Positions 1 through 61,704 of a stretch of DNA of 64,000 nucleotides are shown here, piece by piece. Position numbers and translations under genes: made by a program. Every line of letters begins with the position of its first letter. Positions within the stretch are counted from its first letter, which is position 1. The notes beneath the pieces were generated by a model. That model searched no databases, was not told where the DNA came from, and was given only the letters and a program-made list of their open reading frames with translations. This DNA comes from Azolla caroliniana. Its lineage: Eukaryota; Plantae; Polypodiophyta. The DNA lies in contig JBHGNT010000009.1 of NCBI GenBank assembly GCA_043228905.1, forward strand, positions 19,096,001 to 19,160,000, read 5' to 3'.

Positions 1-465
1 ACAAGGATTTTTTGGTGTGGGAGCAAGTAGCAAGCAGAGTCTTGTACTGCCTTGCATCTTGTGTGCACGACCAGATGCTCGACGACATTCGGGATGCGAA
101 GATGCCGAAGGAGGCATGGGAAAATCTGAAGAAGATTTTTGCTGTAAGTACCACGACCCAGAAGTTGCAACTCCAAAACGAGCTCAACAATATTCGGCAG
201 AGGGATATGACTATGACTGACTACACCACCAAAATCAAGGAGATCTGTGATGCCCTAGGGTCCATCAATGTGACAGTGGAGGAAGATGAGATGGTACAAA
301 TCTGTCTCCGTGGTTTAGCACAAAGATACAAGCTGATTTAGACGGCTATTTGCACAAGGGAGAAACCACCATCATTCTTCGATTTGAAATCAACGCTCAT
401 GGTCGAAGAAAAGCACGCAGGTGCATCGAAGAGCACGCAATTTGATAGCCAAATGCTGTACACGG
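1..465 (+). pseudogene. gag: copia gag fragment (UBN2/Retrotran_gag_2-like)
   Basis: ORF 12-341 with EAWENLKKIF...KLQLQNELNNIRQ...YTTKIKEICDAL; in-frame stop at 339-341. Confidence 0.85.
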
Positions 466-1193
466 TGTCGTAATGTATTTTGTACACTACGTGAAAAACG
501 TATATAGTATTAGATTCAATAAAAAATGAAGAAATAGAAGAAAATAGCAAAATAAATGGAACATGCATAGGGCAAGATTCGAACCTTGCACCTCCATGTT
601 AATAATGTAATGTCTTACCATTACACTAGCATTTCATTAGTGTTAAAGCATAGATGTCCCACATAGAAAGGTAAATTCACGCTAGGATAAACATTAGAAA
701 AACGCATAACAAAAGAAAAAGCTACACATACACATCTAGCGTGCATGATAAAAAACGCACAAGTTAGAAAAAAGCATGATCACTTTAGATAAAGCATATA
801 GTCTATCTATAGGAAAAGCATGGGGTCTATAGTTAGAGAAAAAGCATAGATTACTAAGACTTCCTCATCACTACATAAGGATGGGGAGCACAATGTAATT
901 GTGTGTGAAAAATATTTGGAAACTGGATATGTTTCTAAAAAACACCAATTAATAAACTATACTCGTGGGATTCACGAGAATTCTATATCATTCTCTTTCA
1001 ACCCAAATTTATATTCTTATATTCATATTGATTAATCAAATACAATACACTCGTGGGATTCACGAGTTTGCTATAACTCTTTCTTACAACATATTTATAT
1101 TCTTATTAGCCTTAAAACTCTCCTCTTCCTAGTCCAAAACCTCGGCGGTTCCCACCCGACTCACGCAACGATCCGAAGCCGAAAGGCACGACA
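466..1193 (+). mobile_element. Solo LTR, Phygy-like gypsy family
   Basis: TGTCGTAATG...GGCACGACA; 4-bp TSD ACGG (462-465 / 1194-1197); similar to the LTRs at 13646, 15109 and 61436. Confidence 0.95.
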
Positions 1194-1356
1194 ACGGAGG
1201 CGGATCGGCCCCATGGTCATGGCGGACAAGGTGGATCGACATGCAATGGTGGTGGCCGACAAACAGAATCAAAGGCATAATTGACATGCCGACAATAGTT
1301 CCAGACCCTCCACGAGTAGGGGGAGTCAAGGCAACGCTGGAAATCAGCAAGCAAAG

Positions 1357-4430: not shown

Positions 4431-4614
4431 GTCAATGTTCTTTCCCTCGCTATGTATTGGGTCCCAATGATTTACTATGTGCAAACGGTGTCATAGTGTA
4501 TTTTGTACACTACGTGAAAAACGTATAAAGTACCCGATTTAATAAATATGAAGAAAATGACAAAAATATCAAAATATATATTACATGCATAGGGCAAGAA
4601 AGTTTATTTCACGT

Positions 4615-5345
4615 TGTCGTGAAGAAAACCGTCCCCAGGCGCAAACTGTGTATGGTGTGTGTGAACCGGCCCTTACATGTGGGCACACCCCTTGTTGTAT
4701 AGTGGATAGGTAGGCACAAAGGTCAAATCCTAGGTAGCAATATTCTATAGGGGAAATCGAGGAGTATCTCTGTCCGAAAGGATAGAGAATGAATGTGATG
4801 TAAACGGGTGAAACGGCCTCCCTCCTTGAGCTATAAAAGAGAGGGAGACGGGGGAGAGAAGGTATCGCGCGCTAGAGGGGACAAAGTGCTGTCGGACTGG
4901 GACTGAGCTCTTCTTCTCTGTCGTTCTCCATAGCTTTCTTTTGCGCAGGTTCTCAGGAGGTTGATCCTGCTCCGTGGAACGCCCGTGTGCTTCCGACAGA
5001 ATCTCCATCTTGCTCTCCTGTGTGCGTGGGCGATCAGGTCGTCAGAATCTCCATCTTGCTCTCCTGTGTGCGTGGGTGATCAGGCACCGACATCCATCTC
5101 GCCGACCTGATCGGCTGTAACCGTATGAGTCCTCTACATACATACAAATACATACATATATTTATATACATACGCTAGTGTTCTCAACTCGTGTCTCCTG
5201 TGTTGTTGGGCCGCGTCCCCGTGCGCTTCTTTGTCTATACGTGTGTGAGCGTCTCTCGCTCTCTATCTCTCTCTCCCTCTTCTCACCTCTTCCTCGGTCC
5301 AAGACCCCAGTGGTCCTGCCTTGTTCTCCACGCACGCGTGTACAA
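4615..5345 (+). mobile_element. Solo LTR of a related TGTCGTGAAG family, inside the 4489 LTR
   Basis: TSD ACGT (4611-4614 / 5346-5349); the empty site TTCACGTATATTTTC is seen in the sister LTR at ~13857; 3' end slightly eroded; related to 37151-43622. Confidence 0.85.
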
Positions 5346-6581
5346 ACGTATATTTTCTAGGAAAAAGCTTTAGTTAGAAGAAAAACGCATGATAGAAAAA
5401 AGCTACACGTGCACATCTAGCGTGCATAAACACAATAGTCGATAAAAAACGCATGAGGTTAGAAAAAGCATGTTAGAGAAAGCATATAGTCTATAGATAG
5501 AGAAAACATATAGTCTATAGATAGAGAAATCATATAGTCTATAGTTAGAGAAAAACAATGGATTGTGAAGACTCTCTCTCATCACTATATAAGGATGGGG
5601 AGCACAATGTAATGGGTGTGTGTGAAATATTTGGAAATTGGATATATTTCTAAAAACACCAATTAATAAACTATACTCGTGGGATTCACGAGGTTTCTAT
5701 ATTCTTCTCTTTCAATCTAAATTCATATTCTTATCTTAATATTGATTAATCTAATACAATATACTTGTGGGATTCACAAGTTTCAATCTCTCTTTCTTAT
5801 AATAGATTCACATTCATAACTAAACTCGTCTCAAATTCTTCCTCCTAGTTCAAAACCCCAACGGTTCCCACCTGACTCACGCAACGATCTGGCGCCAAAA
5901 GGCACGACACAGTTGGTGAACCCAACGTCAAGACGGGTGGCAAGGAGATGGAGAATCAACAAGAGGTGATGAAAACGATAATGATGATGTTCGAGCGGAT
6001 GCTACAACAACAATGAGCGATATCGGAGATCACGATGTTAATAAAGAGGCTCGTACAACGAAACAGACAATTCAACGGAAAGTGTCATGATATGGCAAGA
6101 CTCGAACCCATGACCTTATGCTACATGGGTCGAGCTCTTACCATTAGACTATGAATTGTAATTTGTAGGATATTATTTTCATTTATGCTTTATCATAGAA
6201 AATTGATGTATATTCCAGATCTCTCTGGAACATTCTAGAAGCTTCATGATTATTCCTAAAAACACTATAAAAGGAGGCACAAGGCATTGTTTTGAACCAA
6301 ATTGGTTCAACACCAGTCTTAAGCCTCTTAGCCGATTTGTACTTATCTTTCATATAATATAAGAGCTGCTGTCATCATCCTATCTCTCTCTCTCCTCTTC
6401 TCACTTTCTCTCTCTCGGGAATCTTACGCAGTCCCGTCCTCTTAGTACTAATAGTACTGCTCTTCTTAGTACTAATTCCATCTCTGCTTTAGTACTATTC
6501 CTGACAGTTTGAACCAATTTTCCCTCTTTCCTCCAGCCTACTTGTCGTTCTCCCTCATCCTCCTACCCTTTTCCCTCTACT

Positions 6582-7739
6582 ATGGCTACTGTTAGCGCCC
6601 AAGAATATCAATCCGTTTTCTCCGAGTTACAGTGCCTAAAAGAAAAGTTTGTTGCCCTGGCACAAGAAAACCAACGACTGATAGGGGATCTGCAACAAAT
6701 CGCTCCAGAAAAGCAACAAACGCAGCAACAGCATGGAGAGTTAGCGTTACGGGTACAACAACTCGAAGCGGCATTGCAACAATAAGGATCAAGTTCCCAA
6801 GGATTTCATAAAGAGCCGAAGATTGGACTTCTTGTGAAATTTGATGGAACGCGATCGCAATTCAGGGGATTCCTTAATCAGGTACGATTAGTCCTCCAAA
6901 TGCATCCTTCTCGATACCCCACTGATGCATCTTGAGTCGGCTTAATAGGCACGTTGCTTAGCGGCTCAGCCTTAGCATGGTTCGCTCCGCTTCTAGAAAA
7001 ACAATCACCCTTGCTTAATAACTTTGAAGATTTTATTAGTGAGTTCAAAGCCTGCTTTGGAGACACCGACAGCATCAGGACGGCGATCAACAAGATCTGG
7101 CCATTGCGTCAGGGCGATCGTCCAGCCTCTGGCTACGCGGCGGATTTCCGTCTACTCGCTTCCGACATACCTTGGGATGATCAAGCACTAATGGAGTAGT
7201 TTCGCTATGGCCTGCGAAATGATGTCAAAGATCTACTTCTAACCTTCCTCGAAGAACCAAAGTCTCTTACGGAGGCAATCAGTCGAGCGGTCCGATGTGA
7301 CAACCGCCTTTTCGAACGGCGTTCGGAACGTCAATTACAGATACCACGCGCTAGGCCGGAGCCCACTTACGCCGCAATCGCGGCTAGACCATTTGCACGA
7401 GTCATACCTGAAGCAAATACTTTGACACCGATGGAGATCGATATCATGCGTCGACGCGGCCCGTTATCGGAAGAAGAAAAGCAACGACGACGTGCAAATC
7501 GATTATGTCTTTATTGCAGTGGACTAGGGCATATCGCAATCAATTGTCCCCATAGGCCAAGAAGACAGGTAAATCAAATTGTAGCCTATACTAAACCCGA
7601 GTCAATTCTTCCCTTAGGAGTGTCTGATAGTATTAATAGTACTAATAGAGTGTTTGATAGTATTCATAGTACTAATAGCCCAAATATCTCAAAAAAATTT
7701 GAAATCCTTAGTCAATTAGATGAAGAGTTAAACGATTGA
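6582..7739 (+). pseudogene. gag: gag, copy 1 (stops at 6783, ~6933, 7197)
   Basis: Collinear with intact gag 38085-39242; CLYC..GH...C knuckle. Confidence 0.93.
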
Positions 7740-10700
7740 GTCCAGCCAAAATAGGAGCCGTTTGGTTGGACAACAGCCCTAGATCTGTATAGCCCATTAG
7801 TGGTTCCATTCCTTCCAAGCAAGTTAGCAATGTGTTCCTAGCCCAAGTTATTGTTAGTACTAAAAGTACTCCCCCAATACCCGTCCTAGCACTTTTAGAT
7901 TCCGGAGCTAATTCCTGTTTCATGGATCGAAATTTTGCCCAAGCTTCTCAGATATCCCTAAGAAAACTTCCTTGTCCCGCATTTGTAGTAGTCATTGATG
8001 GTCGTCCCATTGCTTCCGGGAATATTGTAGAAGAATCAGAACCCATTCAAGTTGTCCTAGGTAGTTTTGTGTGTGTAATATCATTTAATATAATTAGTAG
8101 TCCAGAGCATCCCATTGTCCTAGGATTACCTTGGTTTCAATTACATAATCCAGCCATAGATTGGAGAACAAGAGAAGTCCGATATCGACCATCCCAAGAA
8201 CCTACTCATCGAGTTTCGACCATCTCACTCCATCATTTACGCGAAGAAGGACACAAGGAGGCAATGTTCCTATTTGCAATATCAGTACATCCTTCCAGCA
8301 CTATTAAGAAGGAATCCTCAGTACAACTTCCAGCAAAATATCATCCTTATGCCGATGTATTTGACAAGGTAAAAGCCGGTACCCTTCCTCATCACCGTCC
8401 CTATGACTATCCCATCGATTTACAACCAGGAACCGAGCCACCATGGGGACCAATTTACAACTTGTCACCCACCGAGTTAGAGGTCCTTCGAGCCTACATA
8501 GAGGAGAACTTGGCAAGTGGGTTCATCCGCCATTCGAAATCTCGAGCCGGTGCACTCATCTTCTTTGTCAAGAAGAAAGATGGCTCACTTCGTCTTGTCG
8601 TTGATTACCGCGGATTGAATAAAGTCACCATTCGGAATAGGCATGCACTTCCTCTTATATCAAGTCTTTTAGAGTGAGTTAATGGTGCCAAGTTTTTTAC
8701 TAAAATCGACCTACGAGGAGTGTATAACCTCATGTGGATCCGACCGGGAGATGAGTGGAAGACCGCCTTTCGCACGCGGTATGGGTATTTCGAGTATACT
8801 GTTATGCCATTTGGCTTAACCAATGCACCCGCAGTCTTCCAACACATGGCAAATGATATATTCAGAGATCTCTTGGATATCTGTTTGATCATTTATCTGG
8901 ATGATCTATTGATTTATTCGAAGACCCAGGAAGAGCACGATTCTCATGTACTATTAGTATTAAATCGACTCCGCGAGAATGGTCTTTATGCCAAGCTAGA
9001 AAAATGTAGCTTTGACTGCAAGCAAGTGGAATTTCTAGGCTACGTCATCTCCTCAAAGGGCATCGCCATGGATCTAGCTAAAGTCCAAACTGTACTAGAG
9101 TGGCAAATTCCACGGTCGGTACGAGATGTACAATGTTTTCCAGGTTTTGCTAACTTCTACTGTAAGTTTATACAGGATTACTCGAAGATTATTTTACCTC
9201 TCACACAACTTACAAAGAAGGGCCAGGCATTTATTTGGTCCATAGAAGCAGATATGGCTTTTCGACATCTTAAGAAAGCGTTTACATCAACACCGATTCT
9301 AGCTCATGTGGATAAGAGCAAACCATTCATCATGGAGGCCGACGCATCAGATTTCGCCCTCGGTAGCATCCTTTCTCAACAAGGCGATAAAGAAGAGTTG
9401 CATCCGGTGGGTTTCCATTCGCGCAAATTCGATGTCGCAGAAATCAACTACGAAATACATGACAAGGAGTTATTAGCCATCGTGGATTCATTTGTGCAAT
9501 GGCGGCATTTCTTAGAGGGCTCTCCACATCAGGTCATTGTCTTTAGCGATCATAAAAATCTTGCTTATATTCAGAACGCTCGTGTACTAAATCGACGGCA
9601 AGCTCGGTGGGCTCAATTCTTCACGCGTTTCGACTTCAAAATCACATATCGACTGGGGAAGCAGCAAGGAAAAGCAGATGCACTATCACGGTGTTCATAT
9701 CTTGCACCTCGTCCTGGTGACGCAACATTTGATAATCAAAAGAAAGTAATCTTGGGACCAACACGATTGCACACGACACGGATTTTTCACACCCCGATGG
9801 ATTCACGGATTACCGATGACATACATGCAACCTTGAAGACGGATAGTTTTGCTCAAGACATCCTGGCGCACATTGATACTTCTCGGGCATCCTGTTCTTG
9901 GTCTCAAGAATCAGGTATTGACTACCGACAATTCGAATATCATGATGGTTTGTTATTCTTTAAAAAGCGCGTTTATGTCCCTGATTGCTCCTGTCGCCTT
10001 TAAATCGTCCAACATTGTCACGACACCCATACGGCGGGACATTTCGGTAGTACTAAGACGTTGGAGCTAGTGCAACGATCTTTTTGGTGGCCTCGCATGC
10101 GCCGTTTTGTCGATGACTACGTTCGGACCTTTGATGCTTGCTGCCGAGCAAAGATGCCACGACACCATCCATATGGCTTGTTGGAACCCTTACCGATTCC
10201 AAGTAAGCCGTGGCAGTCTATTTGTCTTGATTTTATCACAGATCTGCTGGGCTCGAAGGGGTTCGATGCTATCCTAATTGTCGTCGATCGATACACGAAG
10301 ATGGCACATTTTGTGCCGTGTACTAAAGCCATCACTAGCGAGGAAACCACCGCTCTTGTTATGCGTGAGGTATTTCGGCATCATGGCCTCCCAGACAGTA
10401 TTATCAGTGACCGAGGCCCGCAATTTGTCTCCAAATTTTGGCAGCATCTCTTCAAGATGCTCAAGGTCTCCTGTAACCTCTCCTCCGGCTACCATCCTCA
10501 GACTCACGGGCAGGCGGAACGAACAAACCAAACGCTAGAGCAATATCTCCGGTGTTTCCTGAGTTATCAACAGGATGATTGGGCCGAGATTCTCCACTTT
10601 GCGGAGTTTGCGTATAATAATGCTATTCACTCCTCGACTCGGGTCTCCCCATGTTTCGCTTATACCGGTTTCCATCGTCGATGGTCAGTGATCGACACTC

Positions 10701-11308
10701 CGGAGCTACCTACCAACCCTCGTGCCGAGGATCATTTGGAGAGGCTACACAAGATCCAGATGGATCTTTCTACTCACCTTCGTCATGCTCAACACACATA
10801 GAAGACTTATGCGGATCGTCATCGGATTCCCTCCTCTTTTGCCATCGGAGATCGAGTATGGCTCTTACGTCATCACATCAAGACTACTTGACTGTGCGAC
10901 AAGTTGGATTATCGACAACTCGGTCCCTTCCGTATTACGGGTAAGATTAACGGTGTCAGCTTCCGCCTTGATCTCCCTCCGCAGCTTCAGATACATCCGG
11001 TTTTCCATTGTTCTCTTCTTGAACCTTATAAAGCGAACACCATTCCCGATCGTGTGACACCACCGCCGCCCCCGGTGGAGTTGGACGCCGGCCCGGAGTA
11101 TGAAGTTGCTGCCATCCTCGATTCCAAACTTGTTCGCAACAAACTTTATTACTTGGTCGATTGGCTTGGTTATAGTTCGAGCGAACGTATTTGGGAACCC
11201 GTCGAGCATGTTGCTAATGCACAGGATCTTCTTGCTGATTTCCACCAAAAGTATCCAGACAAACCCGGTCCACAATTAGCGCCAACTCGTTCCACTCGTC
11301 GTCTTTAA
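7736..11308 (+). pseudogene. pol: pol (PR-RT-RH-IN-chromodomain), copy 1, stops at 8675, 10001 and 10799
   Basis: LLDSGA, YLDD, EADASD, HPQT, GPF and chromodomain motifs in ORFs 7832-11308. Confidence 0.95.
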
Positions 11309-11748
11309 GGGGGAGATAGTGTCATGATATGGCAAGACTCGAACCCATGACCTTATGCTACATGGGTCGAGCTCTTACCATTAGACTATGAATTGTAATT
11401 TGTAGGATAATATTTTCATTTATGCTTTATCATAGAAAATTGATGTATATTCCAGATCTCTCTGGAACATTCTAGAAGCTTCAGGATTATTCCTTAAAAC
11501 ACTATAAAAGGAGGCACAAGGCATTGTTTTGAACCAAAATCGTTCAACACCAGTCTTAAACCTCTTAGCCGATTTGTACTTATCTTTCATATAATATAAG
11601 AGCTGCTGTCATCATCCTATCTCTCTCTCTCCTCTTCTCACTTTCTCTCTCTCGGGAATCTTATGCAGTCCCGTCCTCTTAGTACTAATAGTACTGCTCT
11701 TCTTAGTACTAATTCCATCTCTGCTTTAGTACTATTCCTGACAGAAAG

Positions 11749-13645
11749 GATGTGTCACGCTATCTACGTGACTACAAAGCGGAGATGATGCGATGTGGGA
11801 TACCAGAAGGATTGCAAGTGATATCCACAAGATACGGCAACAAAACCTGACATGGGGGTCCTTTGAAGAAGCTTTATGAGAGGCATATGACTATGAGAGA
11901 CCGAAGGGACGAGATCAACGCGAGTTCGACGAATGGGTTTTATTAGAGAAAACCCACCGAAGCGCAACACAAGCATTCCTAGAGTTCGAGCATCGTTTTG
12001 CTTGACTCTCGGAGCGGAACAAAGATTGTTGGGGGAGGATAAAGTCCTAATCTTCGTGAGATCGATCGATTAGAAAGAAAGGATGGACATCAGAATCCAA
12101 CTTGAAGATGATACGGTGCAAATGGTCTCATCGAGGATTGGGATGAAGTCGAAAGAGTATGCTAAAGACATGATAAGAGGAAAACGAGAATCTCGTTAAC
12201 AACAACATGGTCCATGAGGGATGTTCGATTAAGGATGAACAATGTGGCCGATACGAAGACTGAAGTACGATACGAAGGTACCACGGTAGAGGGTGTGGAA
12301 CAAACTACCCTCTCTTCTTGCAAAAGAACAATGACCAAGGATAAGGTCGATGACTTGAGAGTGGAGAATGCTACTTCAAAGGTGGAAGAAGGTTTTGGGA
12401 TATGAGTGTTTGAAACATCGAGTGAGATAGGGGTAAGCATAATCGATGCTTGCATGATCAAGGGAGATTAATAGTGTGAGGTAGACGTGATTGAGGAGGT
12501 AGCCACAAAAGATGACATCGAATCAGAGGTGGCTATGGATGAATCAATGGCGGATGGTCCTATCAACACTTTCCCACCACTAATTCCAGAGACTTCGGTG
12601 GTTGCATCTGAAAGGCAACGTGAGACCGAAGAGATGGAAGGTGGCGGAGAGAAAATAAAGGTCGAAGCCTATGCATATGACTGGGAGATAGCCGAGAAGG
12701 TGGCAATGAGCGAAACGATGGAGGACGGTATTATTGAGGATTCCTGCCCACCAATTCAAGAGACTTTGGCGATTGTGTCCGAGAACCAACGTGAGACCGG
12801 GGAGGTGGAAGGTGGGAGCAAAGAACGTAAAGTCGGAAGTGGGTTTGGACGGAAGATGATTTAACCAGAATTTCGGCCTAGACGAAAGCTGAACCAAGCG
12901 AAAGTGGATTTGAACAAAATCCGATTCGTCCAGTTCAACCTGGACATCATTCCAATCGGAAGCCGATCGGACGAGATCGATCCAGAAAGAAGTGCGGGAA
13001 GTCAAACCGGTCGAGACCGGTGAAAACAAAGAAAAGGACGCAAACCCAGATAGAAAGTGATAGGTCGAACCCAACCCGGAAGGGGCCCGACTCGGTAAAA
13101 ACCAATCAACCGAGTTCGATTCGGCCAAATACGAATTAGAATGGAAGCTTATTCAACTGAAAGACGATCGGACGAGACCAATCCAGAAAGAAATTGAGGT
13201 TGATGAATACGAGGAAGAGGCCAAGTAAGTGCACTACAACGGATGACAAGGACCAAGCGGGCCAAGTGGATTTGAAGAGTGTTATTAAGGATGAGATCTC
13301 GACAAAGAAGGAGGGCACTAACATGAAGATTGTCAATTCTAATGCGAGATTATACGACAAAGGTGGATGAAGTGGGAAGCATGGCACATGCACAAGACAT
13401 GAAGGGTTATGCTCAAGAGGATCACAAGGAGCCATGACAACTGGCCATGGCAATGCAAAGAGTGAACAAAGAATATGGTGGATCGGATGGCGACAATGGT
13501 TCGGGTGGAAAGAATGGATGTGCTCAAAATGGAGAGACAAAGTCGACACAACGTAAGAAACTGAGGGTACTATGGATAAAAGAGAATAACGAGCTCCAAC
13601 AACTTTGGCACATACCGGAGGATGTGCAGGTTCGAAGGGGGCGAG
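11749..13645 (+). pseudogene. Rest of the non-autonomous internal region: gag remnant, then an acidic low-complexity coding-like region with a ~170-bp tandem duplication
   Basis: ORF 12487-12864 repeats EVAMDESMADG..PPLIPET..ERQRETEEMEGG / KVAMSETMEDG..PPIQET..ENQRETGEVEGG; no RT or IN motifs. Confidence 0.6.
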
Positions 13646-14353
13646 TGTCGTAGTGTATTTCGTATACTACGTGAAAAACGTGTATAGTACTAGATTCAAT
13701 AAATAAGAAGAAATAGAAGAAAATATTAAAATATAAATTACGTGCATAGGGCAAGATTTGAACCTTGTACCTCCGTGTTAATAATGTAAAGCCTTACCAT
13801 TACACTAACACATCATAAGATTTAAAAAAGAAGATATCCCACGTAGAAAGGTAAGTTCACGTATATTTTCTAGGAAAAACTTTAGTTAGAAGAAAAACAC
13901 ATGATAGAAAAAAGTTACACATGCACATTTAGCGTGCATAAACACTATAGTCGATAAAAACGCATGAGGTTAGAAAAGCAGGATCACTTTTAGAAAAAGC
14001 ATGTTAGAGAAAGCATATAGTCTATAGATAGAGAAAGCATGGAGTCCATAGTTAGTGAAAAAGCATGGATTGCTAAGACTCTCTTGAATCACTATATAAG
14101 GATGGGAGCACAATGTAATAGGGGGGAGAAAATTATGGATGAAAAATCATTAGGGTTAAAAATTAATGATTAATAAAATAAACTATGCTTGTGGGATTCA
14201 CAAGTTTCTATATCTTTCTTTTCCAATCTATTCCTATTGATTCTTAAAATCTATTCATAACTAGATTCATCTCAAGTTCTTCCTCCTCCTAGTCCAAAAC
14301 CCCAGCGGTTCCCACCCGACTCATGCAATGATCCGACGCCGAAAGGCACGACA
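13646..14353 (+). repeat. 3' LTR of the 4489 element
   Basis: TGTCGTAGTG...GGCACGACA after the PPT. Confidence 0.93.
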
Positions 14354-14357
14354 ACGG

Positions 14358-15106
14358 GTATATCAATAGATCTCCCGTAAAATTTTTGTTTGATTCGGGA
14401 AGCTCACACAATTTTGTGAATGATCATTTGGTTCAGATATGGGGAATCCAACCCACCATAAGTGATCACACCTATACGATGCACTTGGCTGATGGAAGAG
14501 TACAATACATCAAATGAGGCGATTCATTCGTTAGGAATTTCTATTGATATTTATATAGAGGAAGTAGACTTCTATGTAATGAATCTTTGTACCACTGATG
14601 TAATACTGGGTTATCCCTGGTTCTAGAATAAAAACTCTTCTTTATCTATTAATTGGGTTCATCAATCAATAACTTTTGTACTGAACGATTGTACTCATTT
14701 TATTCAATGTGTAAAAAAACAATCCCTCTCGATTGCTTCCTCTCCATCAATATCTGAGTTGTCTTGTTCTACTCTATTTTATTGTGTACTTGATCCAGAT
14801 ATTCATGTTTACAATATCGATAATGTCTCGGTTCAGTTAACATATTTTGAACAACAACTTGATGAAATCTTAAATGATTTTCGTGATGATTTTCCGAGTG
14901 AACTACCAGATGGGTTACCTCCTAAACATAATATAGACCATCGTATAAATATTGTACCTGGTGTTGCACCAATAAGTATACCTCCTTATTGTTTAAGTTT
15001 ATCCAAAGAGGATGAGGTATCTAAGCAACTCAAGGACTATTTACGAATGGGTTATATACGTTATAGTAAATCTCCATGGGGTGCACTAGTTCTCTTGGTC
15101 AAACGT
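14358..15106 (+). pseudogene. pol: Host chromovirus protease and RT N-terminus
   Basis: FLFDSGSSHNF; DFPSELPDGLPP..DHRI..PG; SKSPWGALVLLVK. Confidence 0.85.
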
Positions 15107-15847
15107 GTTGTCGTAGTGTGAATCACACATTACGTGAAATATGTAAAATACTATATCCGATTTAAAGTACGTATAATAAATAAAATAAAATATTAAAAAT
15201 ATGTTTTACATGCATAAGGCAAGATTCAAACCCTGTACCTCTATCTAGATAAACCCCAACCTTACCATTGTACTAACTTATCCTAAGTGTTTTAAATATA
15301 GATTTAATACATATAAGACCTTTATTTACGCCTACCTTTATTAAAAGGTAAGTCATGCATGTTTTTTAGAATGCGTGAATACTTTATTTATAATAAAAAA
15401 AATGTACACCAATGAAAAATGACTCGTGCACATTTAACGAGCATGAGCACTATATTTAGGAAATAAAAGCATAGTGTAAAAAGGCAACTCATGCACATTT
15501 AGTGTGCATGAACACCCTAGAAAAAGCATGAAGCTATGCTTAGCCTCTTCCATCCTTATATAAGGAGGAGAGAAAGATGTATGGGGGGTTGTTGATTATT
15601 TTACAAGGATTGATTAATAAAAAAATATTCGTGGGATTCACGATTTTGCCATCTATTTCTCCCTTACATTCTAAGTATCAATTAATACACTATACTCGTG
15701 GGATTCACGAGTTTTTCATATCTTTCTTTCTTACAACATATTTCATATTCTTCATTGCCTTAGAATTTTCTTTTCTCCTAGTCCAAAACCTCAGTGGTTG
15801 CCACCAGACTCACGCAAACGATCCGGCGCCAAAAGGCACGACACAAG

Positions 15848-15864
15848 TGGTGAACCTAACGTGA
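15848..15864 (+). promoter_or_regulatory. PBS complementary to the 3' end of tRNA-Trp
   Basis: TGGTGAACCTAACGTGA; the perfect version TGGTGAACCCGACGTGA at 62246 is the reverse complement of plant tRNA-Trp ...TCACGTCGGGTTCACCA. Confidence 0.85.
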
Positions 15865-15881
15865 ACACGGGTGGCAAGGAG

Positions 15882-17931
15882 ATGGAAAATAAATCGGAGG
15901 CTAACAACATGATGATGATGTTCGAGCGGATGCTTCAAGAACAACGTGCGATGATGTCGGAGATAGCGGCGGCAGTAGAGCGACTCATGCAACGGATCGG
16001 GCAATTCAACGGGAAGGACGTATCACGCTATCATCGGGACTACAAGGCGGAAATGATACGATGTGGGATTTTGGAAGGACTACAAGTGATATCCTTCAAT
16101 CGGGTAGCTACCGACGGGCTTCAAGCAAGTATCCACGGGCTACGACAACAAAATCTGACGTGGGAAGCATTTGAAGAGGCGCTAAAGACCACGTTCGCTA
16201 TCGAGGACTCCTCCAAGGCAACGTGGAGAGGATTCGAGGATTGGGTAGAAATGCTGGACAAGGGGATGAAGGTCCTCGATGTGTTTTCGGCATTCGAAAG
16301 TCGGTTCGGGAGGTTGTCTGCGAGAGATCAAGCTATCCTCGCACCAGACAAAGTTATCATGTTCTTACGAGCCGTAGACGTCCGGGACCGGAAGGATCTT
16401 GGAGTGCTTCTAGAGGACACGAATACCGAGAGTGGCCTCACCGAAACATGGGAAAGCGTGCGGGATATCGTCGCGCGATACACAAAGAGGGGGCAATGGC
16501 TTGCCAACGAAGAAAAGAGGGTTTTGGAACTGATCCCAAAATTGAGATTCGGATCGGAAGACCATCAACCGCGGGCTCGGGAAGCTATGACCGAGAAGGG
16601 AATCGATGCAACTATGGTGGAGCAATTGCTGAAGGAGATGGAGAATTTAAAAATCGCGATGGTGAAGAAGTCGGATGACCGTCCCACAAGTTCCAAGTAT
16701 ATGGACCGTCGGTGCATATGGTGCGATAGCACCGAACATGATCAGAGGGATTGCGACGAATACAAGGAAGCGCTACGATGGGATCTTATCTACTACGAGG
16801 GAAATCAGATTCATTCGATGGACTCTCGGAAGCCGCTTCGACCGAACATCCGAAAAGGCAGCATGAAGAAGGTCCTAGAGGAGGAAATAGCGGCGAAGAG
16901 CAATTACACGACAACCGCGGGAATACGTGTCGGGGAGTCATCGGGAGCAAAGGTGTCTTTTTGGCCGGAAGTGCTAGAAAACAACGAGAAAACCGACTCT
17001 AATGAGATCCGAAGCACCGCGGAAGGCATTCGGGAAGCTACGGGATGGGAGTGCCCCGTCGATAAGAATAGCGTATACGCCCTATGTCAATTACATGAGG
17101 TGTATGTGGATGAGAAGCGGCGATGCACGGAGGATGCGGCTGGACCATCGAAGACACCGGAGAGCTGGAACTCCGACGGAAGAGGGAAAGGAAAAACGAT
17201 TCCAGCATTCAAGCTCGCCTCGGACATCGAACAACAAACGGACTTGAAAAAGGTGTTCGGGGAGAGAATCCTCGACAGCCGGGTAGATTTTTCACTTCGA
17301 GAACTACTCGGAATAGCAAAAAAGGAGTTCCATGATCTTATGGATCTCGTAAAATGAAAAAGACAAAATACAGAGGAAAATGCGCCGATGGTGAATGCAA
17401 ATACCATTATGATGAACGACACCGAAGTGGAGGACGAGATTCCGAATTCCCACTATACAAAGCCACACTGGGCACGTGTAACTACGGAGACTCCGGTCCG
17501 AATCGGCAACATCAAAGAGCCCGTGCTAGCATTGATTGATCACGGATCGGAGATCAATTTGATGTCCAAAGAGTTCTACCGGAAGGGGAAGTGGCCTATT
17601 AACACCAATCATGGATGGAAGATCCGGGTGGCCACTAAAGCAATGGAAGATCTATTTGCGGCTTGTCCGGATGTGACGGTGAAGATCGGGGATGTTGAGA
17701 TCGACCAAAATTTCTTCGTATAAGACGAGGTCTCACACTCCGTGATCCTCGGGCAACCCTTTATCATGGCATCACGGATGGAGACGAAGGTGCTCGATAG
17801 CGGTGCGGCTTTTGCACGAATCCGGAGCCAAAACGGAGGGAAATCCGTCCACCGTCCAATTCCTAACGGTGTCGGCAAATTATGAAAGGAACAAGAGAGA
17901 GCTCTTGTCCCAAACAAGGATGGATTTTTAG
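15882..17931 (+). pseudogene. gag: gag-protease, Phygy-like (stops at 17355 and 17721, 7-bp duplication at ~17845)
   Basis: CIWCDSTEHDQRDC knuckle and ALIDHGSEIN protease; the repaired frame ends ..RMDF* at 17931; collinear with the ORF starting at 62280. Confidence 0.88.
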
Positions 17932-20900
17932 AGTGGACTGTTGCGTAGTGGGGAAGTGATAGTCCGAGAAGCCCTGATACCCCACACAGGAGAAAACTCT
18001 CGGAGCAAAACAAGTACGAATCGGTCCGGATGGGGCATCTATGTACATGGCCGTAACCGGAGGAATGAAGAAAGAATACCGAAAAGTGGAGGATAAGTTA
18101 CGGTCGGCATCAATAATAAAAGAAGATGAAGAAATCGTGGGAATAGTTGAAGAAATGTTCTATGGGAGCACGCTACAACGGCTTGAAGAGCTCGCGAAAG
18201 ATACAAGCCAGGGAGACCGGGTAGTCCTGGTGGAATCGGTCGAGATGTACGAGATCATTGTGAAAATGGGGCCGGATATGCTCCGCAAAGAAGAAGCAAT
18301 GGTAAGTATGAAATACAAGACCGTGGAGAAGAAGGTGAATGTGGCCGCGGGACCACTACCTGCCGATAGCGAACAAAAGAGGAAAGAAGTCTCGGGAGAT
18401 CCGACACTTCAGAAGTCCGTGGATATTGGACATGCCTTCAAGGATGAGACCCCGGAAGAAACTTTGGATTGGTGGAGGTGGTTTCCTTTTACAAAATGAA
18501 GAAGAACGATTCCGAGGGATGTTGGAACAACATGGGAAAGCATTTGCATTCACATTGAAGGAGATAGGGTGCGTTGATCCGAAGATAGTGGAGCCGATGG
18601 TGATCTTCATGATTGACCATGTGCCGTGGAACCTGAAGCCGATTCCGGTGCCACGGACACATATTTTGAAAGTCATCAACTTGCTCAAGGAGAAGGTGGC
18701 GATGGGGATTCTAGAGCCATCAAGTGCTCCGTACTCAAATCGATGGTTTACGGTTCCGAAGAAGAATGGGTCACTCCGATTTATCCAAGACTTGCAATCG
18801 GTAAACAAAGTCATGATCCGGAACTCCGGAGTCGGTCCGATAGTGGATGAATTTGCGGAAGCATTTGCCGGTCGAGCGATATACTCCATCGGAGACCTAT
18901 ACTCGGGGTATGACCAATTCCAGCTAGCCGTGGAGAGCCGAGACATCACTACCATGCGGACACCGATAGGATTAGTCCGGATGTGTACGCTACCACAAGG
19001 CGCGACGAACTCGGTCGCACATATGATGAATGCAATGAACAAGGTGCTTCGAGACTGCATTCCGGAGATAACGATGCTTTTCCTGGATGACATTCCGATG
19101 AAAGGATGCGCGGTAGAAGAAAACGATGAAACTATGGATGATCGAGGATGCCGAAAGTTCGTAGTCGACCATATTCGCGATTGCGAGAAAGTGCTTCGAA
19201 AGTTAGAAGATGTGCACCTAACACTTTCCGGGGAGAAATCGGCATTCGAGCAAGAAGAAATATTGGTAGTCGGATATCTATGTGGGCCCTACGGCCGAAG
19301 ACCGTCACCGACCAAGATCGATGCAATTCAAGCTATGAAAGAAAAATGCGAGTCACAATCTGAAGTCCGAAGGTTTCTCGGAGCATGTGCACTCTATCAC
19401 ATATGGATTCCGCACTATGCACATATTGCGGACCCACTCTATCACTTGTTGCGGAAGGGTAAGAAGATTGAATGGAAACCGGAGCATACCAAAGCTGTGA
19501 AGAAGCTCAAGAAATCACTACGGAGGGCAAAAGCACTAAAGAAGTTGAACTATGACCGACTGATCATAGTAATGGTTGCCACGAGTCCAAATGGAATCGG
19601 ATGGGTCATCAATCAAGCCGATCCGGATGGTTCGCGATATCCGATCCGATTCGGAGCAAAGGTTCTCAATGAAAGGCAACGCGGATATGCACAAGTCAAA
19701 AGAGAATTATGGGGAGTCATGTCGGCAATCAAATCGGATCAAGATTATTTGATCGGGGTTGAAGTAGTGATCGAAACGGATTGTCTTCCGATACTCGGGA
19801 TGATGCGGTGTTGCACGATACCGGATGTGGCTATGCTAAGATGGATTGCATATGTTAAGTCGCTTAATCCGGAGGTACGACACATCTCCGGAAAAGACAA
19901 TGCGGTAGCGGATATGCTATCAAGGGCGAGGTTCGGAGATGACATAACCGAATCCGATAATGAAGAAGTTTCCGAAGACTACTTTGCTTCAGAGCACATA
20001 TGCCGGGTGAACATAATCCGAGAATTCTGGAAAGAAGAATACGAGGGAGAAAGCTTGCTGATCGGGAAAGTGCTACAAGAAATCGAGAAATCATCGGACA
20101 ATAAAGAGAAGAGATCCGAGATCTGAAGTAAGAAGCGGCAAGTTCGAAAGTTCTTCTTGAAAAATGGGTTAATAGGAGGGAGCCGAAAAGACCGGATGGC
20201 ATACCACTTCGGGTAGTCGGGACGAAAGAGCAACGAAACCGGATAATGTCCGAATTTCACGAATCCGATTGGGCTGGACATTGAGGAACATGGGCAACTT
20301 TTGTGCAAATCAAACAAAAATATTGGTGGAAGAACATGTACAAAGATATAGCGGAATTCACGGAAAGCTGCGAGAAGTGTCAAATCTACTCCGGAGTTCG
20401 ACACCGAGATGAGTTACATCTGACATTCTCACCGACAATCAATTTCAAATGGATGGTCGATATTGTAGCCATGCCAACTGGGATCAGACAAAAGAAGTAC
20501 TTGATGTTAGCTCGGGAAGATCTCACAAACCAAGTAGAAGGTCGGGCGCTACGAAGGAAAACATGTTCTGCGGTATGCCAATTTCTTTTGGAGGAGGTGT
20601 TTTGCAGGTACAAGTGATTGCGGATCGGGGAGAACTCAACTCTGATAAAGCTAAGGAATTCTTCACCAAACATGGAGTTCGGTTAACATTGACAACGGCA
20701 TACAATCCAGAAGCCAACGGGAAGATTGAACGAGGACATAGTCTGATCGTCAAAGCACTTGCGAAGGCATGCGATGGAAGTGTGAAGAATTGGTCGCAGA
20801 TGCTTCCGTATGCACTATGGGCGGATCGGACGACACATAGCTCCGTAACCGGTTACATGCCGGCAGAACTCATGACCGGACAAGCACCGATAATGCCAAC

Positions 20901-21458
20901 GGAAACCGCGATCGCAACATGGACAATGCTACCGTGGAAGGAAGAGATGAGCCGGAAAGAACTACTAGCGGTCCAGATACGACAACTAGAGGGAAGACCG
21001 GAAGACCGGAAGACGTAGCGGAAGCAATGCGCCGACAACAAGAAGCGCGATTCCGGAATAAAAGCATGTTCGACACAAAGCACTGACTACGACTGCGGAA
21101 GATTGAAGAAGGAGATTGGGTGATTGTCTACGACAGTAGTTTGGATCATCAACATAGAACGATGTGGAAGTTCGCGAAAAGGTGGTTCGGGCCATACGAG
21201 GTTCGGAAAGTTTTCGACAACAGAACTTACCGACTATGCGAGTTGGATGGAACGATGCTACGAGTGTCTATAGCTGGGAAACGGGTGAAGATTTTCAAGA
21301 AGCGGACTGATGAAGAACCTTATGTGATCCTAGACAAGACCGACAAGAAGGAGCAATCGGACGAAGATTGCGGTGATGCGGAAAGCGAAGAAAGTGGATT
21401 ACAACTCATAGTCGACTTAAGGGGAGAATCGGAGGAAGCTTCGGATGAAGATGAATAG
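17932..21458 (+). pseudogene. pol: pol (RT-RH-IN), Phygy-like, with frameshifts and stops
   Basis: ORF 18339-20126 with DLYSGY, LPQG, FLDD, ETDC, NAVADMLSR; IN 20303-21018 (C..C, D..D..E, YNPEANG); FGPY at ~21185. Confidence 0.92.
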
Positions 21459-22251
21459 AAAGCATCGGGGACTTCGGCACATACCGGAGGATGTGCGGGT
21501 TCGGAGAGGGCGAGTGTCGTAGTGTGAATCACACACTACATGAAATATGTAAAATACTATATCCGATTTAAAGTACGTATAATAAATAAAATAAAATATT
21601 AAAAATATGTTTTACATGCACAAGGCAAGATTCAAACCCTATACCTCTATATAGATAAACCCCAACCTTACCATTGTACTAACTTATCCTAAGTGTTCTA
21701 AATATAGATTTAATACGTATAAGACCTTTATTTACGCCTACCTTTATTAAAAGGTAAGTCATGCATGTTTTTTAGAATGCGTGAATACTTTATTTATAAT
21801 AAAAAAATGTACACCAATGAAAAATGACTCGTGCACATCTAACGAGCATGAGCACTATATTTAGGAAATAAAAACATAGTGTAAAAAGGCAACTCATGCA
21901 CATTTAGTGTGCATGAACACTCTAGAAAAAGCATGAAGCTATGCTTAGCCTCTTCCATCCTTATATAAGGAGGAGAGAAAGATGTATGGGGGGTTGTTGA
22001 TTATTTTACAAGGATTGATTAATAAAAAAATATTCGTGGGATTCACGATTTTGCCATCTATTTCTCCCAAGTTACATTCTAAGTATCAATTAATACACTA
22101 TACTCGTGGGATTCACGAGTTTTTCATATCTTTCTTTCTTATAACATATTTCATATTCTTCATTGCCTTAGAATTTTCTTTTCTCCTAGTCCAAAACCTC
22201 AGTGGTTGCCACCTGACTCATGCAAACGATCTGGCGCCAAAAGGCACGACA

Positions 22252-22639
22252 ACGTAAGTCTACAAAACCTATTGTCTGGAATGCTACACTAGACCTTGCC
22301 TTTAAGGAACTCAAGGACTTGGTGTGCAAGGTTCCTTCACTTCTTTTACCGGATCCTTCAAACCTTTTGAGGTTGAAACCGATGCAAGCGATTATGCTAT
22401 AGGTGTTGTCTTATATCAAGATGGTAAACCAATAGCATTCGAGAGTAAGAAACTTGATTCTGCTCAATGTCAGTATACCGTTCAAGAAAAGGAATTATTT
22501 TGCAGTTATACATGCGCTCAAAACATGGCGCCATTATCTTTATGGAAAATCATTTTGTGGTAACTACGGACCACAAGTCCTTTAAATATTTTTGTCACCA
22601 ACAAGACCAAAAAGATCGTAAGGCACGATGGGCTGATCG
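22252..22639 (+). pseudogene. pol: Host chromovirus RNase H fragment
   Basis: LLLPDPSKPFEVETDASDYAIG..PIAFESKKL..EKEL..TDH. Confidence 0.88.
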
Positions 22640-36857: not shown

Positions 36858-37577
36858 GTTTTTGATAGGAATCGTTCTCGGCCACAACTGACATCCAAAC
36901 TCAATATGGAAGAAAAACACAGAAAATAAGACGACACATTGTGTTAACGTGGAAAACCCTATTCGGGAAAAATCACGGGAACCCACAGACTCCAAACTGA
37001 CGGGAACTCAACGCTCCTTATCCACCACGCTCGGCCACAACCGAGCTTAGAATCATACACAGAAAACGGGAAATAATAAACGACACAAAGAAGAGAAGAG
37101 TACACAGGAGGTTTACATGGAAAACCCCAAACTAGGGAAAAAAACCACGGTGTCGTGAAGAATTTCGGCCAAAGGCGAAAACCGGGAAACATTGGCTACA
37201 TCGGCGGGGTGCAGCGTGTGTACGCACCCATGTACATTTAGTGTGAATATCGAGGGCGCCTTTATGGCACCGAAGAGTAGTCAAGTCGGGATAGATGATC
37301 CCATGGAAGTCGGGATTTGTCCCACGTTGTAACGCATCCCTCTCCTTGTTCTATAAAAGGAAGGGATCGCCCTTTCTGGAGGGGTTGCCCATTTTGCATT
37401 CGAGGGTATCCCGTTAGGTTTAGAGTTAGGTTTCTTCTTCTTCTTCTTCTCCCCCCTTCGTGTTCGTTTAGGGTTTGCTTCAGCTCATCTCTTGCGCAAG
37501 ACCCCGCTCGGCGCGACGAGCCCGTGAGCTCCGCGACGGCGGCTTGGCAGCAGACGACTACTGTAACCTACCTCAGT

Positions 37578-37648
37578 TGTCATGAGATGGCAAGACTCGA
37601 ACCCATGACCTTATGGTATATGGGTCGAGCTCTTAACCATCTCACCAT
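37578..37648 (-). promoter_or_regulatory. tRNA-like A-box/B-box cassette in Tcn1-like LTR (also at 6083, 11320, 30759, 42823; A box deleted at 22640)
   Basis: Minus strand TGGTGAGATGGTTAAG...GGTTCGAGTC with 44-nt spacing. Confidence 0.65.
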
Positions 37649-38017
37649 CTATTGTAATTCATAGAATATTATTTTCATTTATGTTTTATTATAAGAAAGT
37701 AATGTATATTCCAGATTTCTCTGGAACATTCTAGAAGCTTCAGGATTATTCCTGAGAACACTATAAAAGAAGGCACTAAGCATTATGTTGAACCAAATTG
37801 GTTCAACACCAGTCTTAAGCCTCTTAGTCGATTTGTACTTATCTTTCATATAATATAAGAGCTGTTGTCATCATCCTATTTCTCTCTCTCTCTCCTCTTC
37901 TCACTTCCTCTCTCTCGGGAATCTTACGCAGTCCCGTCCTCTTAGTACTAATAGTACTAATAGTACTACTCTTCTTAGTACTAATTCCATCTCTGTTTTA
38001 GTACTATTCCTGACAGT

Positions 38018-38029
38018 TTGAACCAATTT
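38018..38029 (+). promoter_or_regulatory. Self-priming PBS
   Basis: TTGAACCAATTT is the exact reverse complement of AAATTGGTTCAA (37795-37806), ~33 nt after TATAAAA (37762); no tRNA-type TGG start. Confidence 0.85.
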
Positions 38030-38084
38030 TTTCCTCTAGCCTACTTGTCACTCTCCCTCATCTTCCTACCCTTTCCCCTATACT

Positions 38085-39242
38085 ATGGCTACTGTTAGCG
38101 CCCAAGAATACCAATCCGTTTTCTCCGAGCTACAGTGCCTAAAAGAAAAGTTTGTTGCCTTGGAACAAGAAAACCAACGGCTGATAGGGGATCTGCAACA
38201 AATCGCTCTAGAAAAACAACAAACGCAACAACAACATGGGGAGTTAGCGTTACGGGTACAACAACTCGAAGCAGCGTTGCAACAACAAGGATCCAGTCCC
38301 CAAGGATTTCATAAAGAGCCCAAGATTGGACTTCCTGTGAAATTTGATGGAACGCGTTCGCAATTTCGGGGATTCCTTAATCAGGTACGCTTAGTCATCC
38401 AGATGCATCCTTCCCGATATCCCACTGATGCATCTCGAGTCGGCCTAATAGGCACGCTACTTAGCGGCTCAGCCTTGGCATGGTTCGCTCCGCTTCTAGA
38501 AAAACAATCGCCCTTGCTTAATAACTTTGAAGATTTTATTGGTGAGTTTAAAGCCTGCTTTGGAGACACCGACAGCATCAGGACGGCGATCAACAAGATC
38601 CGGCGATTGCGTCAAGGCGATCGTCCAGCCTCTGCCTACGCGGCGGATTTCCGCCTACTTGCTTCAGATATACCCTGGGATGATCAAGCACTAATGGAGC
38701 AGTTTCGCTATGGCTTGCGAAACGATGTCAAAGATCTACTTCTAACTTTCCCCGAAGAACCAAAGTCTCTTACGGAGGCAATCAGTCGAGCAGTTCGATG
38801 TGACAACCGCCTTTTTGAACGGCGTTCAGAACGTCAATTACAGATACCACGCTCTAGGCCAGAGCCCACTTACGCCGCAGTCGCGGCTAAACCGTTTGCA
38901 CGAGACATACCTCAAGCAAATACTTCGACACCGATGGAGATCGATACCATGCGTCGACGCGGCCCGTTATCGGAAGAAGAAAAGCAACGACGACGTGTCA
39001 ATCGATTATGCCTTTATTGCGGTGGACCAGGACATATCGCCATCAATTGTCCCCATAGGCCAAGAAGACAGGTAAATCAAATTGTCGCCTGTACTAAACC
39101 TGAGTCAATTCTTCCCTTCGGAGTGTCTGATAGTAGTAATAGTACTAATAGAGTGTCAGATAGTATTCATAGTACTAATAGCCCAAGTATCTCAAATAAA
39201 TTTGAAATCCTTAGTCAATTAGATGAAGAGTTAAACGATTGA
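38085..39242 (+). CDS. gag: Gag (385 aa): coiled coil, capsid, CCHC zinc knuckle
   Basis: [37 protein letters not shown]. Confidence 0.96.
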   Translation: MATVSAQEYQSVFSELQCLKEKFVALEQENQRLIGDLQQIALEKQQTQQQHGELALRVQQLEAALQQQGSSPQGFHKEPKIGLPVKFDGTRSQFRGFLNQVRLVIQMHPSRYPTDASRVGLIGTLLSGSALAWFAPLLEKQSPLLNNFEDFIGEFKACFGDTDSIRTAINKIRRLRQGDRPASAYAADFRLLASDIPWDDQALMEQFRYGLRNDVKDLLLTFPEEPKSLTEAISRAVRCDNRLFERRSERQLQIPRSRPEPTYAAVAAKPFARDIPQANTSTPMEIDTMRRRGPLSEEEKQRRRVNRLCLYCGGPGHIAINCPHRPRRQVNQIVACTKPESILPFGVSDSSNSTNRVSDSIHSTNSPSISNKFEILSQLDEELND

Positions 39243-42811: not shown

Positions 42812-43453
42812 GGGGGAGATAGTGTCATGAGATGGCAAGACTCGAACCCATGACCTTATGGTATATGGGTCGAGCTCTTAACCATCTCACCATCTATTGT
42901 AATTCATAGAATATTATTTTCATTTATGTTTTATTATAAGAAAGTAATGTATATTCCAGATTTCTCTGGAACATTCTAGAAGCTTCAGGATTATTCCTGA
43001 GAACACTATAAAAGAAGGCACTAAGCATTATGTTGAACCAAATTGGTTCAACACCAGTCTTAAGCCTCTTAGTCGATTTGTACTTATCTTTCATATAATA
43101 TAAGAGCTGTTGTCATCATCCTATTTCTCTCTCTCTCTCCTCTTCTCACTTCCTCTCTCTCGGGAATCTTACGCAGTCCCGTCCTCTTAGTACTAATAGT
43201 ACTAATAGTACTACTCTTCTTAGTACTAATTCCATCTCTGTTTTAGTACTATTCCTGACATCAGTCCGGCTCAAAGCCGGGAGTGTATTCTTCTTATATA
43301 TATACATATACGTTTGCATCTGTCTGTGTATATTGGCGTTTTTGTTGGTGTCGGGTGCTCCCCCCCTTTCCTGCGTTTCCTGTACATGAGGGCGTGAGAT
43401 GCGCGCGTGTGTGCGTGTGCGTGTGTGTGTGTGCGCGCGCGAGTCGGTGTTAA

Positions 43454-43456
<3 letters not shown>

Positions 43457-43490
<34 letters not shown>
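43457..43490. repeat. (CT)n microsatellite in the solo LTR; (GT/GC)n tract at 43401-43440
   Basis: Seen directly. Confidence 0.9.
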
Positions 43491-43493
<3 letters not shown>

Positions 43494-61636: not shown

Positions 61637-61704
61637 CTGCGCAGGGCGTGATTCGAACTCTGCACCTCCACGTTGACAAACCCCAACCTTACCATTACAT
61701 TAAC
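61637..61704 (-). promoter_or_regulatory. tRNA-like A-box/B-box cassette in Phygy-like LTR (also 565-630, 13744-13810, 15211-15277, 21617-21683)
   Basis: Minus strand TAATGTAATGGTAA...GAGTTCGAATC with ~42-nt spacing. Confidence 0.65.

What the first reader, a model, noticed from the sequence alone, without database searches (positions are those of the whole stretch)
462..1197. CpG-centred target-site preference of the TGTCG...CGACA LTR group
Seen: the six insertions of this group have 4-bp targets ACGG (466), ACGG (4489), ACGT (4615), probably ACGT (15109), ACGG (37151) and CCGT (61436; left side only, the reverse complement of ACGG). The consensus [A/C]CG[G/T] is palindromic around CpG. The other families have unrelated 5-bp TSDs (CAAAG, GAAAG, GATCG, TCAGT, TCTCT, CAAAC, GTCTT). 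Inference: the integrase, which has no chromodomain, reads sequence or methyl-CpG directly, which could target methylated heterochromatin and would be of interest as a tool.
Basis: partly seen in the sequence, partly recalled or inferred. Interest (0 to 1): 0.72.

Follow-up and report, generated by a model that had tools for sequence, protein, structure and literature searches.

The report
Retrotransposons that insert at CpG
A group of plant jumping genes inserts almost only into the two letters CG, a habit already published for the moss Phygy lineage to which they likely belong; their integrase likely reads the CG letters themselves, and whether methylation matters is untested.

Summary
Of LTR starts not preceded by the element's own PPT, 775 of 840 (group A) and 2557 of 2988 (groups B+C) have CG at the centre of a 4-bp target, against 3.2% background. 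TA occurs at 4 of 2988, so this is not generic YR flexibility. The motif is VCGB (ACGT favoured, T at the edge avoided), wider than [A/C]CG[G/T]. The elements are chromodomain-less, aRH-less Ty3/gypsy with a tRNA-Trp primer site. These are the features Neumann et al. 2019 give for Phygy, whose 4-bp NCGN targets they report; phylogenetic membership could not be tested. Five of the six window sites have the stated target; 15109 reads GTGT/ACGT, a decayed GCGT. Nothing here requires methyl-CpG reading: 47 of 59 sites lie in repeats, against 66% (41-83%) of background CpGs, because gene windows are CpG-poor. New here: the refined motif, a clade-wide Glu at the position of foamy-virus Ala188, and homologues in liverworts and a fern. 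The scan noted NCGN targets before, in another, likely fungal, genome (e1-10582392).

The parts
462..465 (+). Left copy of 4-bp target duplication ACGG, in a copia-type gag host
   Evidence: empty host sites read ACGG 2x, ACAG 1x
466..1193 (+). Solo LTR, group A, 728 bp, TGTCG...CGACA
1194..1197 (+). Right copy of target duplication ACGG
4485..14357 (+). Group A non-autonomous element 4489-14353 with ACGG/ACGG; 5' LTR 4489-5909, 3' LTR 13646-14353 (516 of 602 aligned bases identical); holds the nested 4615 LTR and a chromovirus at 6083-11743
4611..5349 (+). Group B solo LTR 4615-5345, lacking its last 8 nt, ACGT on both sides, inserted in the 4489 LTR
15105..22255 (+). Group A full-length element 15109-22251 (7143 bp, coding frames broken; LTRs 720 of 734 identical); flanks GTGT/ACGT, likely a decayed GCGT target
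37147..43626 (+). Group C solo LTR 37151-43622 with ACGG/ACGG, interrupted by a chromovirus at 37578-43260 (5-bp TSD TCAGT)
61432..62241 (+). Left target copy CCGT and 5' LTR (61436-62241) of a 7276-bp group A element that ends beyond the window with CCGT; LTRs 804 of 806 identical
62246..62261 (+). Primer-binding site complementary to the 3' end of tRNA-Trp(CCA), 4 nt after the LTR
62181..64000 (+). gag-protease frame (DUF4100, aspartyl protease) running off the window; pol (RT, RNase H, integrase, no chromodomain) follows in locus L090

Best explanation
These LTR retrotransposons insert at CG-centred 4-bp targets (VCGB) across the genome, and their integrase likely recognises the CG bases directly, whether methylated or not, while likely kinking the DNA at that step. 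Shown: 4-bp staggered duplication, central CG at 87% of 3828 junctions, near-exclusion of TA and of T at the edge, no chromodomain or other reader domain. From established knowledge: integrases with a 4-bp stagger unstack the central pyrimidine-purine step and avoid T at the joining position (foamy virus consensus VYRB). Inferred: this lineage narrowed YR to CG through base contacts; candidates are a clade-wide Arg-Gly-Glu after the second catalytic Asp (Glu aligns with foamy-virus Ala188) and a conserved Gln-His...Lys-Phe loop in the SH3-like domain. Inferred consequence: because gene windows here hold about 17 CG per kb and retroelements 49-73, CG reading alone sends most copies into other elements, with no need for a chromatin reader. 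Non-CG duplications are mostly later C>T or G>A decay. The elements are likely members of the Phygy lineage.
For: Genome-wide counts 775/840 and 2557/2988 against 3.2% background. TA 4/2988 and TG+CA 248/2988. Of 12 mismatched duplications, 10 differ from an NCGN word by one C>T or G>A; only 1 of 56 sites has TG on both sides. T at the edge in 2 of 43 CG targets against 23.6 expected; ACGT 15 against 2.0 expected; base before the LTR in 200 listed matches T 115, G 56, C 24, A 5 (hand tally). Where host copies vary at the site, the hit copy has CG (L074: GCGC in 3 empty copies, 37 others with other words among those printed). Repeat share 47/59 against 66% of CpGs; CG density by compartment. 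Integrase folds like foamy-virus and Ty3 integrase, with a disordered acidic tail at pLDDT under 50. Glu148 in 34 of 34 close homologues, Pro in 6 of 8 distant ones, same motif in 8 group-B loci. Bending and T avoidance: PMC4422553, passages and section 14. NCGN, 4 bp, tRNA-Trp for Phygy: PMC6317226, passages and supplementary file 3.
Against: No methylation data were available, so methyl-blindness is inferred, not shown. The repeat share is on the high side (80% against 66%), and 6 of the 12 remaining sites also have LTR-retroelement domains beside them (the background was not re-scored that way), so up to 53 of 59 may be in repeats. The background rests on 20 windows of one contig and its interval is wide. 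In foamy virus Ala188 touches bases outside the duplication, not the central step, so Glu148 need not be the CG reader. A review states that cytosine methylation created strong target preferences for avian retroviral integration in vitro (PMC11054761, passage; the original was not held). Surviving insertions are filtered by selection.
Confidence: 0.68

Rival explanations
1. The integrase prefers or needs 5-methyl-CpG, reading the methyl groups in the widened major groove or the altered stacking, and so targets silenced DNA without a chromodomain.
For: 47 of 59 sites in repeats, up to 53 with Pfam evidence; duplications show the C>T/G>A decay expected of methylated DNA; methylation shaped avian retroviral target choice in vitro (PMC11054761 passage).
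Against: Repeat share not above the CpG-weighted background (P about 0.13). No reader domain. TpG, which carries a methyl where 5mC does and is accepted by many methyl readers (recalled), is a true target at 1 of 56 sites although TG+CA are 13.9% of dinucleotides. Decay dates from after insertion. CG-containing specificity (CGCG) exists in Drosophila ZAM-group elements (PMC5408687 passage), in a host with almost no CpG methylation (recalled).
Confidence: 0.15
2. Two tiers: CG is read locally, and a host factor bound by the acidic integrase tail or another element part additionally tethers integration to heterochromatin.
For: An acidic tail follows the SH3-like domain in nearly all 42 aligned integrases; 52 of 62 group-A LTR starts on contig C1 lie at 8-26 Mb of 37 Mb.
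Against: The tail is not conserved in sequence or length (6-159 residues). The repeat- and CpG-rich background windows lie mostly in the same stretch, so CG density predicts the same distribution. Groups B+C occur from the first 60 kb of C1.
Confidence: 0.14
3. The pattern is generic preference for flexible YR steps, local GC richness, or a boundary artefact.
For: All 4-bp retroviral integrases enrich central YR (PMC4422553); flanks are 44% GC.
Against: TA 4 of 2988 although twice as common as CG; CG reaches at most 7.8% in the richest background window; empty sites confirm 4-nt duplication in 39 of 40; 7 of 7 neighbouring 5-bp TSDs have no central CG.
Confidence: 0.02

Closest known systems
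Phygy, non-chromovirus Ty3/gypsy lineage of Physcomitrella patens (Neumann et al. 2019, PMC6317226)
   Same: 4-bp NCGN target, tRNA-Trp primer site, no chromodomain, no extra RNase H, coding region filling the interior.
   Different: The two full-length copies measured are 7143 and 7276 bp, below the published 7656-9968 bp; many short non-autonomous copies; motif refined to VCGB; close homologues in Riccia, Calypogeia and Adiantum, where the paper called Phygy species-specific. Tree placement not tested.
Ginger1 DNA transposons (Bao et al. 2010, PMC2836005)
   Same: Gypsy-like integrase with GPY/F motif, 4-bp CG-centred targets (CCGG 75%, CCGT/ACGG 24%).
   Different: Cut-and-paste elements with inverted repeats; narrower motif, centred on CCGG, whereas ACGT leads here.
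Prototype foamy virus integrase (PMC4422553; PDB 3oy-series)
   Same: Best structural match with Ty3; 4-bp stagger; consensus VYRB, of which VCGB is a subset.
   Different: Weak YR preference, no CG requirement; Ala188 where this clade has Glu.
Drosophila errantiviruses, gypsy/ZAM/Idefix groups (PMC5408687, PMC3276498)
   Same: Ty3/gypsy integrases with sequence-specific 4-bp palindromic targets (TATA, CGCG, ATAT).
   Different: Different lineage and termini; the ZAM target has GC, not CG, at its centre.
TatI and Selgy (PMC6317226 supplementary file 3)
   Same: Non-chromovirus, 4-bp TSD; TatI also uses tRNA-Trp.
   Different: TatI has an extra archaeal-type RNase H, not found here; Selgy uses tRNA-Ala and is about 5 kb; no NCGN preference listed for either.

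Membership tests
Phygy | Ty3/gypsy order gag-protease-RT-RNase H-integrase | tested here: met
   Pfam on the two frames of the 61436 element
Phygy | No chromodomain | tested here: met
   No Chromo hit at E<=0.1; the window's chromovirus pol does hit; tail disordered in the model
Phygy | No extra (archaeal-type) RNase H and no extra ORF | tested here: met
   One RNase H region only; the pol frame runs up to the 3' LTR
Phygy | 4-bp TSD with NCGN | tested here: met
Phygy | Primer site for tRNA-Trp | tested here: met
   The complement of the site lies in tRNA-Trp(CCA) genes in 6 of 6 loci examined, of 64 matches
Phygy | Length 7656-9968 bp (descriptive range) | tested here: inconclusive
   7143 and 7276 bp, 5-7% under the range of one species
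Phygy | Clusters with P. patens Phygy in RT-RH-INT trees (the formal definition) | not testable with these tools
   No REXdb reference sequence was available; none of the homologues listed carried a Physcomitrium name; ESM Atlas gave only generic RT clusters
TatI | Extra archaeal-type RNase H | tested here: not met
Tcn1 chromovirus | Chromodomain, 5-bp TSD, self-priming | tested here: not met
Methyl-CpG-reading integrase | Preference for methylated over unmethylated CpG | not testable with these tools
   No methylome or assay; indirect test neutral

The most novel reading that the evidence does not exclude
The integrase of this lineage senses 5-methyl-CpG in its target groove, through the clade-specific Arg-Gly-Glu and Gln-His motifs, and so finds silenced DNA without a chromodomain: an integrase directed by a DNA modification, shared from mosses and liverworts to ferns and possibly fungi.
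Probability: 0.15. Interest if true: 0.75.

Novelty: new member of a known kind. Interest (0 to 1): 0.22.

Why it matters
The preference itself is published, so the finding is mostly a confirmation in another genome at larger scale (3828 junctions against 186 elements). It remains the one plant LTR lineage reported to pick a sequence, and my searches found no test of how. The data narrow that question: CG-specific, edge-T avoiding, with two candidate integrase motifs, and with CpG scarcity in gene space as a sufficient reason why copies pile into other elements. If methylation is sensed, it would be a new targeting route and a possible tool; if not, a 2-bp motif is too common to be a useful tool.

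Tried and rejected
Generic YR flexibility: rejected. 5-bp TSD or shifted boundary: rejected. [A/C]CG[G/T] as consensus: too narrow. Longer target motif: beyond the 4 bp only G depletion next to the duplication (0.12 against 0.25) in 44 sites; no strong signal. Preferential insertion into the element's own lineage: 8 of 59 sites against 21% (3-38%) of background CpGs, no excess. Target motifs of distant relatives: the 80 metagenome loci were mostly collapsed repeats; the 21 distant ones (L230-L250, mostly 25-31% identity) gave no usable paired ends; a few close relatives showed ACGT, GCGC and CCGT flanks but also ATGG, ACAT, ATGT, TAAT. A link to fungal Ylt1 (recalled lead) was not established. 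Earlier scan notes on this genome about PPT-less elements concern other families; these elements have a PPT. Rows left out before the 59-site count: of 68 non-PPT starts in the first 100 listed, two second LTRs inside fetched regions and the last seven on C2. Supplements not seen: the element-level table and sequences of PMC6317226, which would allow the tree test.

Full report
Setting. The window is G000:C9:19096001-19160000 in a 523-Mb, chromosome-scale genome. It is a stack of nested LTR retroelements. Tcn1-type chromoviruses and homologues named from Riccia, Calypogeia and Adiantum point to a non-seed plant; I did not identify it.

The six sites. 466-1193 is a solo LTR with ACGG on both sides. 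4489-14353 has ACGG/ACGG. 4615-5345 has ACGT/ACGT but lacks the last 8 nt of its family's LTR. 37151-43622 has ACGG/ACGG. The 61436 element ends 4.7 kb past the window with CCGT, matching its left side. 15109-22251 reads GTGT/ACGT; three of five uninterrupted host copies read GCGT there, so the target was likely GCGT and has decayed. The six fall into three LTR families (A, B, C) that share termini, primer site and integrase clade; group B integrases are 55-61% identical to group A. All seven 5-bp control duplications are present.

Genome-wide test. Exact patterns for LTR starts were counted over the whole genome. Group A: 1324 starts, 484 preceded by the element's PPT end, 775 of the remaining 840 with CG at the centre of the preceding four bases. 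Groups B+C: 5113, 2125, and 2557 of 2988; TG+CA 248, TA 4. Together 3332 of 3828, 87%, against 3.2% background. The denominators include 3' LTRs with mutated PPTs and the numerators may hold a few 3' LTRs, so the shares are approximate and probably low. The patterns catch only copies with intact termini.

Both ends. For 59 group A sites on C1 and C2, chosen without regard to flank (59 of 68 non-PPT starts in the first 100 listed), 56 had both ends; 44 had a perfect 4-bp duplication (43 with CG), none a 5-bp one; 10 of the 12 mismatches are one C>T or G>A away from an NCGN word. Junctions in the search loci gave 31 of 32 (A), 27 of 31 (B) and 33 of 37 (C) with CG. Empty homologous sites, found for 40 of 61 sites, show a 4-nt duplication in 39. 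Among CG targets ACGT is over-represented (15 against 2.0 expected) and words with T first or A last are rare (2 against 23.6). The motif is VCGB.

What the elements are. The 61436 element is 7276 bp with LTRs 804 of 806 identical; its frames carry DUF4100 and protease, then RT, RNase H and integrase, with no chromodomain and no second RNase H. The primer site matches tRNA-Trp(CCA) genes of this genome. Neumann et al. 2019 (PMC6317226; passages and supplementary file 3 read, element table not seen) state that Phygy is the exception among plant LTR lineages in preferring NCGN, and list 186 elements, 4 bp 100%, tRNA-Trp 81%, 7656-9968 bp. Jedlicka et al. 2019 (PMC6911290, passages) repeat the 4-bp TSD for Phygy. 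Every testable feature fits except length, which is slightly short; the formal tree test could not be run.

Mechanism. Shown: CG specificity, 4-bp stagger, exclusion of TA, avoidance of T at the edge. Known: 4-bp retroviral integrases bend the central YR step and avoid T at the joining base; the foamy-virus consensus is VYRB (PMC4422553, passages and section 14). The predicted integrase (mean pLDDT 76) matches foamy-virus and Ty3 integrases best and ends in a disordered acidic tail. The residue aligned with foamy-virus Ala188 is Glu in 34 of 34 close homologues and Pro in 6 of 8 distant ones; Gln and His in the SH3-like loop are each kept in 31 of 34. That these read CG is inference; Ala188 itself contacts bases outside the duplication.

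Methylation. It could not be measured. Indirect test: 47 of 59 sites lie in repeats, against 39% of positions but 66% of CpGs in 20 background windows (bootstrap 41-83%, P about 0.13). The repeat library was built largely from insertion loci, which favours the sites; six of the other 12 sites also have retroelement domains nearby, which pushes the share up, and the background was not re-scored. Four gene-bearing windows hold 17 CG per kb, retroelements 49-73, so CG reading alone predicts nesting. True TpG targets are rare (1 of 56). In favour of the rival, a review reports that methylation shaped avian retroviral targets in vitro (PMC11054761, passage; original not held). The question stays open; I put methyl sensing at about 15%.

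Prior art beyond Phygy. Ginger1 transposons use CCGG or CCGT/ACGG (PMC2836005, abstract and passages; lead from scan note e1-10582392, whose fungal data I did not check). Drosophila errantiviruses use TATA, CGCG or ATAT (PMC5408687 and PMC3276498, passages). PMC7466625, PMC2864245 and PMC6839031 (passages) added nothing on the motif. Searches found no test of the Phygy mechanism; subscription journals are mostly outside the library.

Verdict. Real, strong and genome-wide, but a new instance of a published trait. Interest 0.22; 0.75 if methyl sensing were shown.

Noticed in passing
window 62242-62245 and own-genome loci: The LTR end and the primer site are 4 nt apart in 63 of 70 cases (5 nt in 5, 8 nt in 2), and 4 nt also separate the G tract from the 3' LTR; the integrase may trim 4 nt rather than the usual 2 (recalled) from each end.
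   Followed up: partly
L068:5696-6578 (-) and 7879-9648 (-) (G000:C1:29.91 Mb): A solo LTR sits between a 589-residue frame with no Pfam hit and exon-like pieces matching the N6/N4 DNA methylase family (E 1.5e-8); an empty homologous site exists among the loci. Marchantia has N4-cytosine methyltransferases (bioRxiv 10.1101/2021.02.12.428880, passages); relation untested.
   Followed up: partly
L151-L170 (contig C1): Two compartments: repeat-rich windows at 42-55% GC with CpG o/e 0.83-1.11, and mostly non-repeat windows, several with genes, at 35-39% GC with o/e 0.38-0.53; the reverse of the usual expectation that repeats lose CpG.
   Followed up: partly
window 4489-14353; L033-L081: An abundant non-autonomous group A derivative of 3.1-3.8 kb, several with LTR identity 0.995-1.000, so recently mobile; solo LTRs are also very common.
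   Followed up: partly
window 24347-29021: The chromovirus at 22640-31181 carries a 1555-bp internal segment three times in tandem.
   Followed up: no
window 14401-15100: The host element left of 15109 has lost about 650 bp of its RT between short similar words, an event separate from the insertion.
   Followed up: yes
G000:C8:17.80-17.82 Mb, C16:4.99-5.11 Mb, C5:10.11 Mb: Clusters of matches to the tRNA-Trp 3' end at spacings of about 0.9-1.3 kb on C8 and C5, likely tandem tRNA arrays.
   Followed up: no
L092, L093, L095: Group B LTRs whose flanks look like shared internal sequence of another element rather than unique targets.
   Followed up: no
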